Source of the DNA: a virus
Taxonomy: Duplodnaviria; Heunggongvirae; Uroviricota; Caudoviricetes
Virus record (IMG/VR): IMGVR_UViG_2551306526_000001
Direction: 5' to 3' (one strand)
Length of the DNA stretch: 20,028 nucleotides
A program made the position numbers. Each line of letters starts with the position of its first letter. The stretch's first letter is position 1. Positions 12,001 to 18,000 of the stretch are shown here, piece after piece.

Positions 12001-15000
12001 GCGGGTGACTGAAGCAGGTGCGGATGATGAGGAGGAATTACAGCAGGAGGAGTAATGCTGAATCAGGAAACCGCAAAGGCAGCACGAACCGATTCAGGTT
12101 ATATCCTTCGCGCACCGAGACGAATGCGGGTTGCTGATGCCGTTGCTCAGTATATGCGGGTGGAGGGTCCGGCAGCTGCTTACCAGACACTCTCGCAACT
12201 CGTTTACAAACTGCTTACTGCAGAACAGGAATACGAGACAACCGGAAGTGAAGAAACACTCAAGACGGTTATCAATACCGACTGGGGATTACCTTATCTT
12301 CCCCGTGCCAGCATGGAGCAACGAAAAAGTGAACTGCTTGAGCAGCGGGCAGAGCCAGTTCCTTCCCGCAGTGTGCCGGATGGCGTTAATTTCCTTGTGG
12401 CGACAGTGGATGTGCAGGCGGGACGTCATCGCCGTTTTGTGGTTCAGGTAACGGGCTATGGCAGCCGTGGCGAACGCTGGATTATTGATCGTTACAACAT
12501 CACGCAGTCATTGCGCGGTGACAGCGACGGGGAGAGCCAGCGAATTGATCCGGCCAGCTATCCGGAAGACTGGGATGTCCTGCTGACGGATGTTTTTCAT
12601 AAAAGCTGGCCGCTGGCCTCCGATCCTTCTCAACAAATGCGACTGATGGCAATGGCGGTGGACTCCGGCGGTGAAGACGGGGTCACTGATAATGCCTATA
12701 AATTCTGGCGTCGTTGCCGTCGTGATGGCCTTGGTAAACGTATTTACCTGTTTAAGGGCGACAGCATCCGGCGCGCAAAACTGATCACCCGTACATTCCC
12801 TGATAACACCGGACGAACGGGCCGACGGGCGCAGGCCGCAGGTGATGTGCCGCTCTGGCTTCTTCAGACGGATGCCCTGAAAGACCGGGTGAATAACGCG
12901 TTATGGCGTGACTCGCCAGGTCCAGGCTATGTGCATTTCCCTGACTGGCTGGGGAGCTGGTTTTACGACGAACTGACGTATGAAGAGCGGAGCCGTGACG
13001 GGAAATGGAGTAAGCCGGGTCGCGGTGCCAACGAAGCTTTTGACCTGATGGTGTATGCCGAGGCTCTGGTCATTCTGCATGGATACGAAAAGATCCGCTG
13101 GCCGGATGCACCGGAGTGGGCGAGCCGGGAAACCTGGCTGGAGTGTGTCCCGGACAGTACCGAACCGTCACCCTCACCGGAACCGGTATCCACGCCTGTT
13201 AAAAAACAAAAACGGAAGAAAACAGTAACTGACGATGTTAACCCCTGGCTGACTTCCGGAGGATGGTTATGAACCAGAATGATATCGAAGCCATGATTCA
13301 GCGTTATACGGAAGCTGAAATGGCGGTGCTGGACGGAAAATCCGTCACCTTTAATGGTCAGCAGATGACCATGGAAAACTTATCTGAGATCCGGCAGGGA
13401 CGGCAGGAGTGGGAGCGCCGCCTTGCGGCTCTGATTACACGACGACGGGGGCATCCCGGGTACCGGCTGGCGAGGTTCTGATGGCAATTCTTGATGATGT
13501 GATTGGCGTTTTTTCACCAGGATGGAAAGCGGCAAGGCTGCGTTCCCGTGCGGTGATCCAGGCTTATGAGGCCGTAAAAACGACGCGGACACACAAAGCC
13601 CGGCGGGAAAACCGAACTGCCGACCAGTTAAGCCAGTACGGGGCCGTGTCGTTACGTGAGCAGGCCCGTTACCTTGATAACAACCACGATCTGGTTATTG
13701 GTGTATTTGACAAGCTGGAAGAACGGGTGGTGGGGAAAAACGGGATTATTGTCGAGCCACATCCGGTATTACGCAATGGGGCCATTGCCCGTGATCTGGC
13801 AGCGGAGATACGCACCCGATGGAGTGAATGGTCTGTCAGTCCGGAAGTCACCGGGCAGTTTACCCGTCCGATGCTGGAACGTCTGATGCTGCGTACCTGG
13901 CTGCGCGATGGTGAGGTGTTTGCCCAGATGGTTTCCGGGCGCATAAACAGCCTGACGCCTTCTGCCGGTGTTCATTTCTGGCTGGAGGCGCTCGAGCCGG
14001 ACTTTATTCCCATGACCAGTGATGAGAGCAACAGGCTGAATCAGGGCGTGTTTGTTGATGACTGGGGGCGTCCCGAAAAATATCTGGTGTATAAAAGCCG
14101 TCCCGTATCCGGGCGGCAGATGGAAACCAAAGAAGTGGATGCAGAGCGAATGCTGCATCTTAAATTTGTTCGCCGTCTGCACCAGATGAGCATGAGGCGC
14201 TGACGCCGGAAAAGTCCTGACGCGGGAAATGCAGTTTGTCATGCGGCTTGCCCGGGAGTTCCGGCGGGCAGACTGGCGGCGGATGCTGTCGGAAATGTCG
14301 GCCACTGAGCTTGGTGAGTGGGGCGATTATTTCCGGATGCAGAGCTTCAGTGATGTGTGGATGGATGCGCAGTTTGCCTCGCTGAAGGCATTGATCGTGA
14401 GAATGGTGTCCGGCAGCAGTGATGCTGCGGTGGCTGATTTCAGCCTTTTACCGGAAGAGAACGGGATACCGGAGCGAACGGACGAAGAGGGGAATACCAA
14501 CATCTCCGGCGTCACGGTGGTGTTCCGGGCCGGTGAGCAGGAGCAGACACCGCCGGAGGGATTTGAATCCTCCGGCTCCGAGACGGTGCTCGGTACAGAA
14601 GTGAAATATGACACGCCGATCACCCGGACCATCACGTCGGCAAACATTGACCGTCTGCGTTTTACTTTCGGCGTGCAGGCACTGGTGGAAACCACCTCAA
14701 AGGGGGACAGGAATCCATCGGAAGTCCGCCTGCTGGTTCAGATACAACGTAACGGTGGCTGGGTGACGGAAAAAGACATCACCATTAAGGGTAAAACCAC
14801 TTCACAGTATCTGGCCTCGGTGGTGGTGGATAACCTGCCGCCGCGCCCGTTTAATATCCGGATGCGCAGGATGACGCCGGACAGCACCACAGACCAGCTG
14901 CAGAACAAAACGCTCTGGTCGTCATACACCGAAATTATCGATGTGAAACAGTGCTACCCGAACACGGCACTGGTCGGCGTGCAGGTGGACTCGGAGCAGT

Positions 15001-18000
15001 TCGGCAGCCAGCAGGTGAGCCGTAATTATCATCTGCGCGGGCGTATTCTGCAGGTGCCGTCGAATTATAACCCGCAGACGCGGCAATACAGCGGTATCTG
15101 GGACGGAACGTTTAAACCGGCATACAGCAACAACATGGCCTGGTGTCTGTGGGATATGCTGACCCATCCGCGCTACGGCATGGGGAAACGTCTTGGTGCG
15201 GCGGATGTGGATAAATGGGCGCTGTATGTTATCGGCCAGTACTGCGACCAGTCAGTGCCGGACGGCTTTGGCGGCACGGAGCCGCGCATCACCTGTAATG
15301 CCTGGCTGACCACACAGCGTAAGGCGTGGGATGTTCTCAGCGATTTCTGCTCGGCGATGCGCTGTATGCCGGTATGGAACGGGCAGACGCTGACGTTCGT
15401 GCAGGACCGACCGTCGGATAAGGTGTGGACCTATAACCGCAGTAATGTGGTGATGCCGGATGATGGCGCGCCGTTCCGCTACAGCTTCAGCGCCCTCAAG
15501 GACCGCCATAATGCCGTTGAGGTGAACTGGATTGACCCGGATAACGGCTGGGAGACGGCGACAGAGCTTGTGGAGGACACGCAGGACATTCTCCGTTACG
15601 GTCGTAACGTCACGAAGATGGATGCCTTTGGCTGTACCAGCCGGGGGCAGGCACACCGCGCCGGGCTGTGGCTGATTAAAACGGAGCTGCTGGAGACGCA
15701 GACCGTGGATTTCAGCGTGGGTGCCGAAGGGCTTCGCCATGTGCCGGGTGATGTTATTGAAATCTGCGATGATGACTATGCGGGGATCAGCATCGGCGGG
15801 CGCGTGCTGGCGGTGAACAGCCAGACCCGGACGCTGACGCTCGACCGTGAAATCACGCTGCCATCCTCCGGTACCACGCTGATAAACCATACTCATAGTG
15901 TCACAGGCGCATCAGCAGTCAGCCAGTGGTCACAAAATGGGTCAGTACATAAGGTAGTGTCTGCGGCCAGTGTGAATACAAGTGCTGCAGGAGCGCACAC
16001 TCATAGTGTCAGCGGCACAGCTGCATCTGCAGGTGCTCACGCACATACTGTCGGTATTGGTGCTCATACGCACTCTGTTGCGATTGGCTCACATGGACAC
16101 ACCATCACCGTTAACGCTGCTGGTAACGCGGAAAACACCGTCAAAAACATCGCATTTAACTACATTGTGAGGCTTGCATAATGGCATTCAGAATGAGTGA
16201 ACAACCACGGACCATAAAAATTTATAATCTGCTGGCCGGAACTAATGAATTTATTGGTGAAGGTGACGCATATATTCCGCCTCATACAGGTCTGCCAGCA
16301 AACAGTACCGATATTGAACCGCCAGATATTCCGGCTGGCTTTGTGGCTGTTTTCAACAGTGATGAGGCATCGTGGCATCTCGTTGAAGACCATCGGGGTA
16401 AAACCGTCTATGACGTGGCTTCCGGCGACGCGTTATTTATTTCTGAACTCGGCTCATTACCGGAAAATGTCACCTGGTTATCCCCGGAAGGGGAGTTTCA
16501 GAAGTGGAACGGCACAACCTGGGTGAAAGATGCAGAAGCAGAAAAACTGTTCCGGATCCGGGAGGCGGAAGAAACAAAAAATAGCCTGATGCAGGTAGCC
16601 AGTGAGCATATTGCGCCACTTCAGGATGCTGCAGATCTGGAAATCGCAACGGAGGGAGAAACCTCGTTGCTGGAAGCCTGGAAAAAGTATCGGGTGTTGC
16701 TGAACCGTGTTGATACATCAACTGCACCTGATATTGAGTGGCCTGCTGTCCCTGTTATGGAGTAATCGTTTTGAGATACGCCGCATACACGTTGTATGCA
16801 ATAACGTGCTGCGGCTTGGTAAATTTTAGCTAGTTTCAGCAGGAGACATAAAAAACTTCAATATAAGATTAAGCATCACGTATTGCCAATCTGATTTTTG
16901 ACTGATACCAATTGGGGCCTTCTGCAATTATTTCTTCCTCAACATGCATGATGGGATGCATTTCAATTTCAGAGTTTTTGACTTTCAGATCTAGTCCATG
17001 TTTTTTTGAAATTTGTAAAACTTCATTTTTGAAATCCTTATCTGCGAAAGGTGAAATCCTTATTTCTTCCAACAGATTATTAAGAGATACAGGGACTAGT
17101 TTTCCCTTTACAGGTGGAGTGTTAAAGGTATTCTCTTGAAAAATAGCTCTAAACTCTTTTTCGTATTCGAAAGATGGTCTCTTGTTAAAGAATACATCTG
17201 ATTCTGGATTGTATTGTTTTATCCAGAAATTTTTGACGTATTTTACGTGTTTTAATTGTAGTTTGTTTAGATTATTATTTTCAAGTTGGCTTTGGAGTTT
17301 TTTTTTCTTTGATTTTATGACAACGCCTTTAGCGGGGTTTTTACAATACAGCTTCCACATAGCTTCAGATTCATGTTCGTTACAATGCCAGCAACTTATA
17401 TATGTCCTCTCGCTTATTTCCTTAAGTGTCTTTAAATTGAATGCCATGAAAGGATCTAAGTCCATGCCGGCACCATAAGTAGCGCATAGTTTTTCCTGTG
17501 TCTCAATGAATTTTTTATAGCCAGTATGTCCCCAAGCAAATTCACCTTCGAACGGATCTTCAAAATTTTTTGCTGAGCAAAAAAATAAAGCATTTTGTTC
17601 GAGTAACATAGAGAATTTCTCTATGTCAAGGTATCGCCATATATACTCAGTGTGCATGATAGCTCCTTGCAATATAACTATTTCTATCTGTTCATTTGTA
17701 CTTAAAAAGGATTGAGTAGCCTGAACAGTTCTATCCGTAAATATACCAGATAGAAGAGTTGTACAATAACAAATCCTCCGTACAAGAACCAGCCATAATA
17801 GTCTGGTTCTTAAGGTTTTTTTTGTTCTAGGGGGGTTTAACCTACGATTCGTCCCCATATCGGCGATAAATCAGGCCTGTACCAACGCTTCTGTTTCTGT
17901 GAGTGAAATCTGATAGCGTTTTACTGCCTCAGCAAAGGCGTGCGCGGCATCTGCATTTGATACCATATATTCTTCAGTTACCCCTGTTTGAGAATGGAAA

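What the first reader, a model, noticed from the sequence alone, without database searches (positions are those of the whole stretch)
13481..16181. Collapsed structural module: portal fragment and chimeric J-Stf ORF imply at least two large deletions
After W, the portal ORF ends at ~240 aa and continues in another frame. By 14480 the sequence becomes J-like (…[12 protein letters not shown]…), skipping all head, tail-tube and tape-measure genes. Around 15880 (…[14 protein letters not shown]…) J is joined in frame to a side-tail-fibre tip. The junctions are approximately at 14195-14205 (frame change), 14470-14485 and 15878-15885. The result is a 650-aa fusion protein of unclear function followed by an intact Tfa chaperone.
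Basis: partly seen in the sequence, partly recalled or inferred. Interest (0 to 1): 0.5.

Follow-up and report, generated by a model that had tools for sequence, protein, structure and literature searches.

The report
Decayed prophage tail-gene remnant
This stretch is the wreck of the head-and-tail gene block of a defective lambda-like prophage of E. coli: deletions removed about 18 kb and spliced leftovers of three tail genes into one 650-codon reading frame. That is ordinary prophage decay, except that the leftmost deletion starts at a nucleotide in the terminase gene where about 30 other, independent deletions also start.

Summary
Against intact phages mEp460 and 2H10, the morphogenesis block has four deletions:
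- 885 nt, in frame, inside terL (junction at window 12161-12162, outside the finding).
- 5608 nt, portal to the 3' end of gpG (14185-14188).
- about 5665 nt, gpT to gpJ (14487-14488).
- about 5623 nt, gpJ to stf (15884-15885).

The portal ORF does not continue in another frame. The sequence after it comes from gpG/gpT.

The 650-aa ORF is a triple chimera: T codons 1-86, J residues 56-521 and the last 98 residues of Stf. An intact Tfa follows. PGAP calls these pieces pseudogenes.

The junctions occur only in a small E. coli lineage. None is in any phage genome or in 2.9 million viral contigs. Relatives carry further deletions that cut into the ORF from its 5' side.

Best explanation: non-functional wreckage from illegitimate recombination at 2-4 nt microhomologies.

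The unexpected part is the terL breakpoint (…ATGCGGGTG^). About 30 independent deletions in other E. coli prophages share its left end to the nucleotide. All those mapped run downstream, and nearly all join at a TG. This is a directional deletion hot spot whose mechanism I could not establish.

The parts
11561..12055 (+). Terminase small subunit gene (DUF1441 type), intact
   Evidence: 164-aa ORF. Annotated as a DUF1441 family protein in relatives. 99% identical to mEp460 1-626 together with the terL 5' end.
12055..13272 (+). terL with an in-frame 885-nt deletion (405 aa instead of 700). The ATPase domain is lost and the nuclease domain is kept.
   Evidence: Window 11536-12162 matches mEp460 1-626 and window 12158-14191 matches mEp460 1507-3540. 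Pfam finds only GpA_nuclease; intact mEp460 TerL has GpA_ATPase at 41-304 plus GpA_nuclease at 326-644.
12154..12162 (+). ATGCGGGTG: left end of the terL deletion and a recurrent deletion breakpoint (hot spot)
   Evidence: Junction alignment. The same left end is joined to other partners in EC19, the 042 clone, ES2, OU342919, an IMG/VR contig and about 30 short ORFs.
13269..13481 (+). Head-tail adaptor gene (gpW-like, DUF6148), intact
   Evidence: Collinear with mEp460 gp03, 2618-2830. Weak DUF6148 hit.
13481..14203 (+). Portal gene stub: 236 portal codons, then 4 foreign codons and a stop
   Evidence: 99% identical to mEp460 portal up to mEp460 3537. The intact portal is 502 aa. PGAP: 'phage portal protein, incomplete'.
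14185..14188 (.). Junction 1: portal joined to the gpG 3' end, 4-nt microhomology GATG, 5608 nt missing (mEp460 3538-9145)
   Evidence: Three-way alignment and block coordinates.
14189..14220 (+). Last codons and stop of the gpG-like tail chaperone gene
   Evidence: 100% identical to the end of mEp460 gp11, 8788-9177.
14229..14488 (+). gpT ORF, codons 1-86 of 109 (T')
   Evidence: 100% identical to mEp460 9186-9445. Pfam Phage_tail_T at residues 24-87.
14487..14488 (.). Junction 2: gpT joined in frame to gpJ codon 56, 2-nt microhomology GA, about 5665 nt missing on the mEp460 scale (9446-15110)
14487..15885 (+). gpJ fragment, residues 56-521 of 1132. FNIII-A and Phage-tail_3 domains are kept. 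Both Ig domains, the tail-tip fibre and the receptor-binding domain are lost.
   Evidence: 99.4% identical to 2H10 16400-17801. Pfam on the ORF and on intact 2H10 J.
15884..15885 (.). Junction 3: gpJ joined in frame to the stf 3' end, 2-nt microhomology AA, 5623 nt missing on the 2H10 scale (17799-23421)
   Evidence: The deletion measures 5632 nt against Ec1119.
15886..16181 (+). Last 98 codons of a side-tail-fibre gene (His-x-His-rich tip) plus the stop
   Evidence: 96.6% identical to 2H10 23420-23717, the end of tail fibre gene gp23. 100% identical to stfR-type genes in many E. coli.
14229..16181 (+). Chimeric 650-aa ORF, T'(1-86)-J'(87-552)-Stf'(553-650)
   Evidence: The exact protein is on at least 24 E. 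coli contigs, named 'phage tail assembly protein T'. PGAP treats it as two pseudogenes.
16181..16765 (+). Tail fibre assembly gene tfa, intact (194 aa)
   Evidence: Caudo_TAP domain. Identical to WP_000885619.1. 96.6% identical to 2H10 tfa.

Best explanation
The region is the decayed morphogenesis block of a defective lambdoid prophage. In relatives this prophage sits next to tRNA-Thr/proA. The window is probably from APEC strain chi7122. RecA-independent (illegitimate) deletions at 2-4 nt microhomologies removed about 17.8 kb:
- most of the terL ATPase domain;
- the 3' half of the portal gene through most of gpG;
- the end of gpT through the first 55 codons of gpJ (tape measure, M, L, K, I);
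- the 3' 611 codons of gpJ, lom and all but the last 98 codons of stf.

Two of the junctions happen to preserve the reading frame. An ATG that the intact phage uses only inside the G-T frameshift product therefore now heads a 650-codon T'-J'-Stf' ORF. The ORF is most likely an untranslated or useless by-product, not a gene.

Shown: the parentage of every segment, the junctions, the microhomologies, the restriction to one lineage, and continuing erosion. Inferred: the deletion mechanism, the order or number of events, and the lack of function.
For: - Block-by-block collinearity with intact phages at 95-100% identity, with abrupt jumps, and nucleotide-level junctions with GATG, GA, AA and TG microhomology.
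- Domain content matches the parent fragments.
- RefSeq/PGAP annotates the same DNA in strains EC130 and APEC E19057 as incomplete pseudogenes.
- The junctions are rare and lineage-restricted. Portal-to-G and T-to-J occur in 1 of 5426 complete E. coli genomes, J-to-stf in 3, and the terL junction in 2. None is in viral contigs; the two junctions scanned further (T-to-J in GTDB representative genomes, J-to-stf in JGI metagenomes) were absent there too.
- Near-identical relatives (99.7% or more) carry at least seven further, different deletions of 1.1-11.7 kb in the same remnant.
- Members of the ORF's 90% cluster are N-terminally truncated at residues 132, 189, 201, 243 and 264 with new fused starts. 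The 5' part of the ORF is therefore not protected.
- The ATG at 14229 has only GGGA one base upstream, a poor Shine-Dalgarno spacing (sequence).
- Other E. coli prophages show the same kind of collapse: portal to gpK in NZ_CM151362, head decoration gene to J in AF58, terL to K in EC19.
Against: - The 650-codon frame is open and identical on at least 24 contigs. Those strains differ by only about 3 substitutions in 6 kb, so this says nothing about selection.
- Both internal junctions are in frame (1/9 by chance), and so is the terL deletion.
- The Stf tip, Tfa and the cargo genes to the right are kept in every variant seen, though the search was anchored on them.
- No intermediate carrying only one or two of the junctions was found. 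Sequential deletion is therefore assumed, not shown.
Confidence: 0.9

Rival explanations
1. The collapse is the product of one complex event: serial template switching (microhomology-mediated break-induced replication style) that began at the terL hot spot and jumped forward four times. It is not four separate deletions.
For: - No intermediates were found in 5426 genomes or in the protein collection.
- The retained islands between deletions are short (304 and 1402 nt).
- All junctions have 2-4 nt microhomology.
- The three large jumps are almost equal: 5608, about 5665 and about 5623 nt.
- The first junction sits on a site that repeatedly starts rightward deletions.
Against: - The sizes of the second and third jumps depend on which intact phage is used as ruler. 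Tape-measure and fibre genes differ by 250-500 nt between mEp460 and 2H10.
- The same lineage demonstrably makes single deletions often.
- The lack of intermediates may only reflect thin sampling of a small lineage.
Confidence: 0.15
2. The T'-J'-Stf' protein is a domesticated, functional product. With Tfa as chaperone it would form a trimeric receptor-binding or exclusion factor, and it is kept for that reason.
For: - The ORF is open, with two in-frame junctions.
- Intact tfa lies immediately downstream.
- J and Stf are both trimeric fibres (established knowledge of lambda J and Stf).
- The right half of the ORF plus tfa persists in all decay variants.
Against: - The N-terminal third is removed by independent deletions in relatives.
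- There is no own promoter signal in the region (4 promoter-like sites against 4.5 expected, none before the ORF), and the ribosome-binding context is poor.
- The J fragment lacks its first 55 residues and everything from residue 522, including the receptor-binding domain.
- There is no PADLOC hit.
- Occurrence is confined to one near-clonal group.
Confidence: 0.05
3. The junctions are assembly artefacts, or the ORF is a native gene of an unsampled phage.
Against: - The same junctions occur in three independently finished chromosomes and in more than 20 contigs from NCBI, ENA and Logan assemblies.
- No phage or viral contig carries them.
- Each segment has an intact parent gene elsewhere.
Confidence: 0.01

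Closest known systems
Cryptic (defective) lambdoid prophages of E. coli, such as DLP12, Rac, Qin and e14 of K-12
   Same: An integrated lambdoid genome that has lost most head and tail genes by deletion but keeps the repressor, lysis genes, the packaging-gene stub and a stf/tfa cassette. The leftovers are annotated as pseudogenes.
   Different: A different locus (thrW/proA side) and a different set of junctions. Here the leftovers of three tail genes form one long open frame.
Phage mEp460 (NC_019716) and phage 2H10 (NC_049950), intact relatives
   Same: terS, terL, W, portal and G/T are 99-100% identical to mEp460. J (99.4%) and stf-tfa (96.6%) are closest to 2H10.
   Different: The window lacks about 17.8 kb of their late region and cannot build a capsid or a tail.
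Lambda tail genes G/T, J, stf and tfa
   Same: Pfam Phage_tail_T, FNIII-A_GpJ, Phage-tail_3 and Caudo_TAP domains. T lies in the -1 frame relative to G, as in lambda (sequence; G-T frameshifting is established knowledge).
   Different: No G start, so no G-T product. J lacks its N-terminal 55 residues and its C-terminal 611. Stf is reduced to 98 residues.
Fixed-endpoint deletion series: Int-promoted lambda b deletions ending at att, and deletions ending at the nick site of M13 or pC194 replication origins (recalled from the literature, not checked here)
   Same: The terL hot spot gives the same signature: one nucleotide-precise end, a variable other end on one side only, and little homology.
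   Different: No recombinase site, origin or nickase is known at this position. There is no similarity to the cos region, and partner sites share only TG.

Membership tests
Defective (cryptic) lambdoid prophage | Gene order and sequence collinear with lambdoid phages | tested here: met
   The window aligns block by block with mEp460 and 2H10, from the early genes through lysis and packaging to the tail fibre.
Defective (cryptic) lambdoid prophage | Integrated in a bacterial chromosome next to an integrase and tRNA | tested here: met
   In EC130 the same element lies between tRNA-Thr/integrase and paoD. An intact prophage occupies the same paoD-side locus in Ec1119. The window itself does not reach the att sites.
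Defective (cryptic) lambdoid prophage | Essential morphogenesis genes missing or disrupted | tested here: met
   The terL ATPase domain, half of the portal, the protease/capsid gene, the tube, the tape measure, M, L, K, I and most of J are absent.
Functional temperate phage | Complete terminase, portal, capsid and tail gene set | tested here: not met
   About 17.8 kb of the late region is deleted.
Lambda gpJ (tip attachment protein) family | Full domain series FNIII-A, Phage-tail_3, Ig_J, Ig_J_second, Phage_Tail_Tip and the C-terminal receptor-binding domain | tested here: not met
   Only FNIII-A and Phage-tail_3 are present. Intact 2H10 J has all six.
Lambda gpT / G-T tail assembly chaperone | T ORF downstream of, and in the -1 frame to, a complete G gene | tested here: not met
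   Only the last 12 codons of G remain, and T is cut at codon 86 of 109.
Side tail fibre (Stf) with Tfa chaperone | Stf N-terminal attachment domain (phage_tail_N), shaft and tip, followed by tfa | tested here: not met
   Only the last 98 of about 1117 Stf residues remain. tfa is intact.
Anti-phage defence protein (PADLOC models) | Match of the 650-aa ORF to a defence-system model | tested here: not met
   No hit at E <= 0.01.
Site-specific recombination or nick-site deletion hot spot (for the terL breakpoint) | Many independent rearrangements sharing one nucleotide-precise end | tested here: met
   Six lineages in finished genomes or viral contigs, plus about 30 distinct ORF tails diverging after codon 36.
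Site-specific recombination or nick-site deletion hot spot (for the terL breakpoint) | An identified enzyme or structure acting at the site | not testable with these tools
   The hairpin is not unusual (z about -1). There is no cos-like similarity. Partner sites share only TG.

The most novel reading that the evidence does not exclude
The collapse of this module begins at a previously undescribed, sequence-specific deletion initiation site in the terL gene of mEp460-type lambdoid prophages. The site is ATGCGGGT(G/T)^, at codons 36 and 26. A fixed DNA end there is repeatedly joined to TG-bearing sites 0.9-24 kb downstream, and this systematically destroys the morphogenesis genes. The fixed end could be a site-specific nick, a topoisomerase cleavage, or a block to end resection. 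If a dedicated host, phage or satellite factor makes that end, this would be a directed mechanism of prophage inactivation rather than random decay.
Probability: 0.4. Interest if true: 0.65.

Novelty: new member of a known kind. Interest (0 to 1): 0.3.

Why it matters
The finding itself matters little. It is a well-resolved example of how a lambdoid prophage decays, with every junction mapped and a series of further-decayed relatives. It also shows that automated pipelines name the chimeric ORF 'tail assembly protein T' or 'host specificity protein J', and neither name fits.

The useful by-product is the terL breakpoint. Prophage decay is usually modelled as random deletion followed by selection. 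Here about 30 independent deletions start at one nucleotide and all those mapped run in one direction. That points to a mutational mechanism with sequence specificity. The site is short, conserved (at least 99% identical in 1363 of 1388 genomes that carry it) and easy to test experimentally.

Tried and rejected
- **Cos site.** I first read window 11535/11536 as the cos site because mEp460 coordinates start there. That record simply starts at the terS ATG, so I withdraw this.
- **Pseudo-cos at the hot spot.** The local alignment to the upstream G+C-rich cos region is no better than shuffles (816 of 1000 shuffles score at least as well).
- **Hairpin-induced stalling.** Folding energies on both strands are ordinary (z 0.06 to -1.4).
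- **Chi.** mEp460 has Chi at 662 and 1130, then none in either orientation for 22 kb. The nearest Chi is 36 nt from the breakpoint, and Chi would not give single-nucleotide precision.
- **Hin/Gin/Pin-type invertase site.** Invertase genes lie next to tfa in several of these prophages. By eye, the site shows no resemblance to the hix/gix consensus as I recall it, and the partners share only TG.
- **Search for intermediates.** I looked for strains carrying a subset of the four junctions and found none.
- **Other collections.** The scans of JGI metagenomes and GTDB representatives for the junction and hot-spot patterns found nothing.
- **Not attempted.** Structure prediction of the chimera, because it would not decide function.
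Full report
**What the window is**

The window is a lambdoid prophage of Escherichia coli.
- Its 5-kb core (12500-17500) matches E. coli chromosomes. In strain EC130 the same element lies between tRNA-Thr/integrase and paoD.
- The exact 405-aa truncated TerL of the window is on record only as CCK45424.1 of E. coli chi7122, on a 4,771,701-bp record. The portal stub is CCK45425.1, and a 632-aa version of the chimeric ORF is CCK45426.1.
- That length equals the chi7122 chromosome length given in PMC4313913. 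The window is therefore very probably from that avian pathogenic O78:H9 ST23 strain.

**Checking the observation**

ORF listing and translation confirm a 240-aa portal ORF (13481-14203), a 650-aa ORF (14229-16181) and a 194-aa tfa (16181-16765).

Pfam results:
- The portal ORF matches only the first 205 of 354 positions of Phage_portal_2.
- The 650-aa ORF carries Phage_tail_T (residues 24-87), FNIII-A_GpJ (117-238) and Phage-tail_3 (361-528).
- The upstream 405-aa terL ORF carries only the nuclease domain.

**Mapping against intact phages**

The best intact relatives are mEp460 (NC_019716) for the packaging, portal and G/T parts, and 2H10 (NC_049950) for J, stf and tfa. blastn of the whole window gives these blocks:

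| Window | Matches | Identity |
|---|---|---|
| 11536-12162 | mEp460 1-626 | 99.2% |
| 12158-14191 | mEp460 1507-3540 | 99.1% |
| 14185-14488 | mEp460 9142-9445 | 100% |
| 14487-15888 | 2H10 16400-17801 (mEp460 15109-16510) | 99.4% (95.9%) |
| 15884-16746 | 2H10 23420-24282 | 96.6% |

Three-way alignments place the junctions as follows:

| Junction | Window position | Microhomology | Missing DNA |
|---|---|---|---|
| terL internal | 12161-12162 | TG | 885 nt |
| portal to gpG | 14185-14188 | GATG | 5608 nt |
| gpT to gpJ | 14487-14488 | GA | about 5665 nt |
| gpJ to stf | 15884-15885 | AA | 5623 nt (5632 nt against Ec1119) |

The 650-aa ORF is T codons 1-86, J residues 56-521 and Stf's last 98 residues. 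Pfam on the intact parents shows what was lost:
- the whole TerL ATPase domain;
- the C-terminal 266 residues of the portal;
- from J, both Ig domains, the tail-tip fibre and the receptor-binding domain;
- from Stf, everything but the tip.

By analogy with lambda (established knowledge), T is made only as a G-T frameshift fusion. Only 12 codons of G remain here, so the ATG at 14229 is not a natural start. It has GGGA one base upstream. No promoter-like site precedes the ORF.

**Is it a native gene, or an artefact?**

No phage genome has the protein. The best record covers residues 85-553 only. Two records cover at least 80% of the query, but they rank below all listed hits, so they are at most about 89% identical.

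None of the four junction sequences occurs in 2.9 million viral contigs. In complete E. coli genomes:

| Junction | Genomes of 5426 |
|---|---|
| portal to gpG | 1 |
| gpT to gpJ | 1 |
| gpJ to stf | 3 |
| terL internal | 2 |

The exact 650-aa protein is encoded on at least 24 contigs from independent assemblies, so the junctions are real. PGAP annotates the pieces as incomplete pseudogenes.

**Continuing decay**

Loci that carry the ORF are at least 99.7% identical to the window (most at least 99.9%). They show at least seven further deletions, in window coordinates:
- 1743-13457
- 2128-9975
- 12561-14791
- 10164-13460
- 4777-10564
- 13005-14118
- 9499-13663

Each has a 2-9 nt overlap. Members of the ORF's 90% cluster start at residues 132, 189, 201, 243 or 264, with foreign N-termini. 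The 5' part of the ORF is therefore eroding. The Stf tip, tfa and the cargo genes to the right were present in all variants seen, but the search was anchored on them.

Comparable collapses exist in unrelated E. coli prophages. This is ordinary prophage decay.

**Mechanism**

The short microhomologies indicate RecA-independent illegitimate recombination (inference). Whether there were four events or one complex template-switching event cannot be decided, because no intermediate was found.

The three large deletions are nearly equal in size (5608, about 5665, about 5623 nt). The second and third values depend on the reference phage, because H and stf lengths differ between mEp460 and 2H10. I record this as an unexplained coincidence.

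**The unexpected part: a recurrent breakpoint in terL**

The junction search for the terL deletion showed other genomes in which the same 103-nt left flank stops at the same nucleotide but continues differently. I followed this with three more genome searches and one viral-contig scan. Six independent lineages all read …CAGTATATGCGGGTG| and then join a different partner:

| Lineage | Right partner |
|---|---|
| The window lineage | mEp460 1507 |
| An IMG/VR contig | mEp460 2227 |
| EC19 | mEp460 14261, in gpK |
| ES2, at the Qin locus | mEp460 18776, in lom |
| The '042' clone, at ssrA | mEp460 19006 |
| OU342919, at the Qin locus | inside stf |

A protein search with TerL residues 1-40 returned 56 short ORFs.
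- 31 of them (about 29-30 distinct tails) follow …AQYMRV (codon 36) with unrelated sequence.
- Within the same 40 residues, the only other clear break was after codon 26 (2 ORFs). Besides these, 15 ORFs keep the native continuation past codon 36, 13 of them with frameshifts in the GGGGG run just downstream, and a few variant or end-truncated ORFs were not classified.

Eleven look-ups of such ORFs, including the first for the chimeric ORF itself, and mapping showed:
- All placed partners lie downstream on the same strand, 0.9-24 kb away.
- 12 of 13 parental partner sites carry TG just before the breakpoint. TG frequency is 0.08, giving a binomial P of about 4e-13. Three share 5-7 nt.
- The left parent never extends beyond the G.
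- The two codon-26 cases break after the other copy of the same motif (GAATGCGGGTT^), 30 nt upstream.
- ATGCGGGT occurs only at these two places in the window and in mEp460.
- One contig of the window's own lineage (L029) joins 12162 to window 15751. This is a second use of the site in the same prophage lineage.

This is the signature of a fixed DNA end, most simply a 3' end at …GGGTG, that is rejoined or extended at a TG further along. I could not identify what makes that end:
- The hairpin is not unusual.
- There is no resemblance to cos.
- Chi is 36 nt away.
- The held literature has no report.

Candidates are a site-specific nick, a strong topoisomerase (gyrase, T^G) cleavage site, or a block to exonuclease. 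None of these was tested. Whether leftward deletions share the point is also untested.

**Verdict**

The finding is real and largely correctly interpreted. It is an ordinary defective-prophage remnant, and the fusion ORF is most likely meaningless. The interest lies in the terL hot spot, found while mapping the leftmost junction.

Noticed in passing
window 12124-12162 (terL codons 24-36): Deletion hot spot. About 30 independent deletions in E. coli prophages start exactly after ATGCGGGTG (nt 108 of terL), and two start after the upstream copy ATGCGGGTT (nt 78). All mapped partners are downstream on the same strand, and 12 of 13 carry TG at the partner site. The mechanism is unknown.
   Followed up: partly
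window junctions at 14188, 14488 and 15885: The three large deletions are almost the same size (5608, about 5665, about 5623 nt) when measured on mEp460 and 2H10. This may be a coincidence or the mark of a single multi-jump event. The second and third sizes depend on the reference phage.
   Followed up: partly
window 1743-14791; loci L001, L003, L006-L015: A decay series. Near-identical strains carry at least seven different further deletions (1.1-11.7 kb, 2-9 nt overlaps) in the same remnant, and the window (with L007, L009 and L011) is the least decayed form.
   Followed up: yes
window 13458-13461 and 9490-9498: Two independent secondary deletions end 3 nt apart inside CCCGGGTACC (13458 and 13461), and a third starts after GCCGGGTAC (9498). 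This may be a second recurrent breakpoint motif.
   Followed up: no
window 12055-13272: The in-frame terL deletion removes residues 37-331, which is the ATPase domain almost exactly. It leaves the N-terminal 36 residues, the nuclease domain and the C-terminus.
   Followed up: partly
window 16869-17858 (- strand) and 17871-19073 (- strand): Cargo genes lie right of tfa. One is a DUF2971 protein that matches the PADLOC candidate defence family PDC-S31 (E 9e-21). The other is a DUF4236 protein with no defence hit. The pair sits next to tfa in 121 complete E. coli genomes, often beside intact prophages.
   Followed up: partly
window 19571-20028: An IS2 end (99.8% identical to the IS2 copy in EC130, opposite strand) interrupts the element here. 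All related contigs continue without it at this point.
   Followed up: partly
mEp460 (L004) 662 and 1130; none until 23104: Two Chi sites sit just inside terL, and there are none in either orientation across the next 22 kb of late genes. All hot-spot deletions remove both.
   Followed up: no
L002 (NZ_CM151362), L016 (AF58), L018 (EC19), L019 (IMG/VR), L020, L022, L023: Other E. coli prophages show similar collapsed late regions: portal to gpK, head decoration gene to J, and the terL stub to K, lom or stf. L016 also has foreign capsid and terS genes inserted within a split portal gene.
   Followed up: partly
L006 1-5694: In one relative a type I restriction-modification system (hsdR, hsdS, hsdM) lies directly upstream of the remnant, which is there cut down to a methylase-gene stub, holin, lysozyme and the portal stub.
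   Followed up: no
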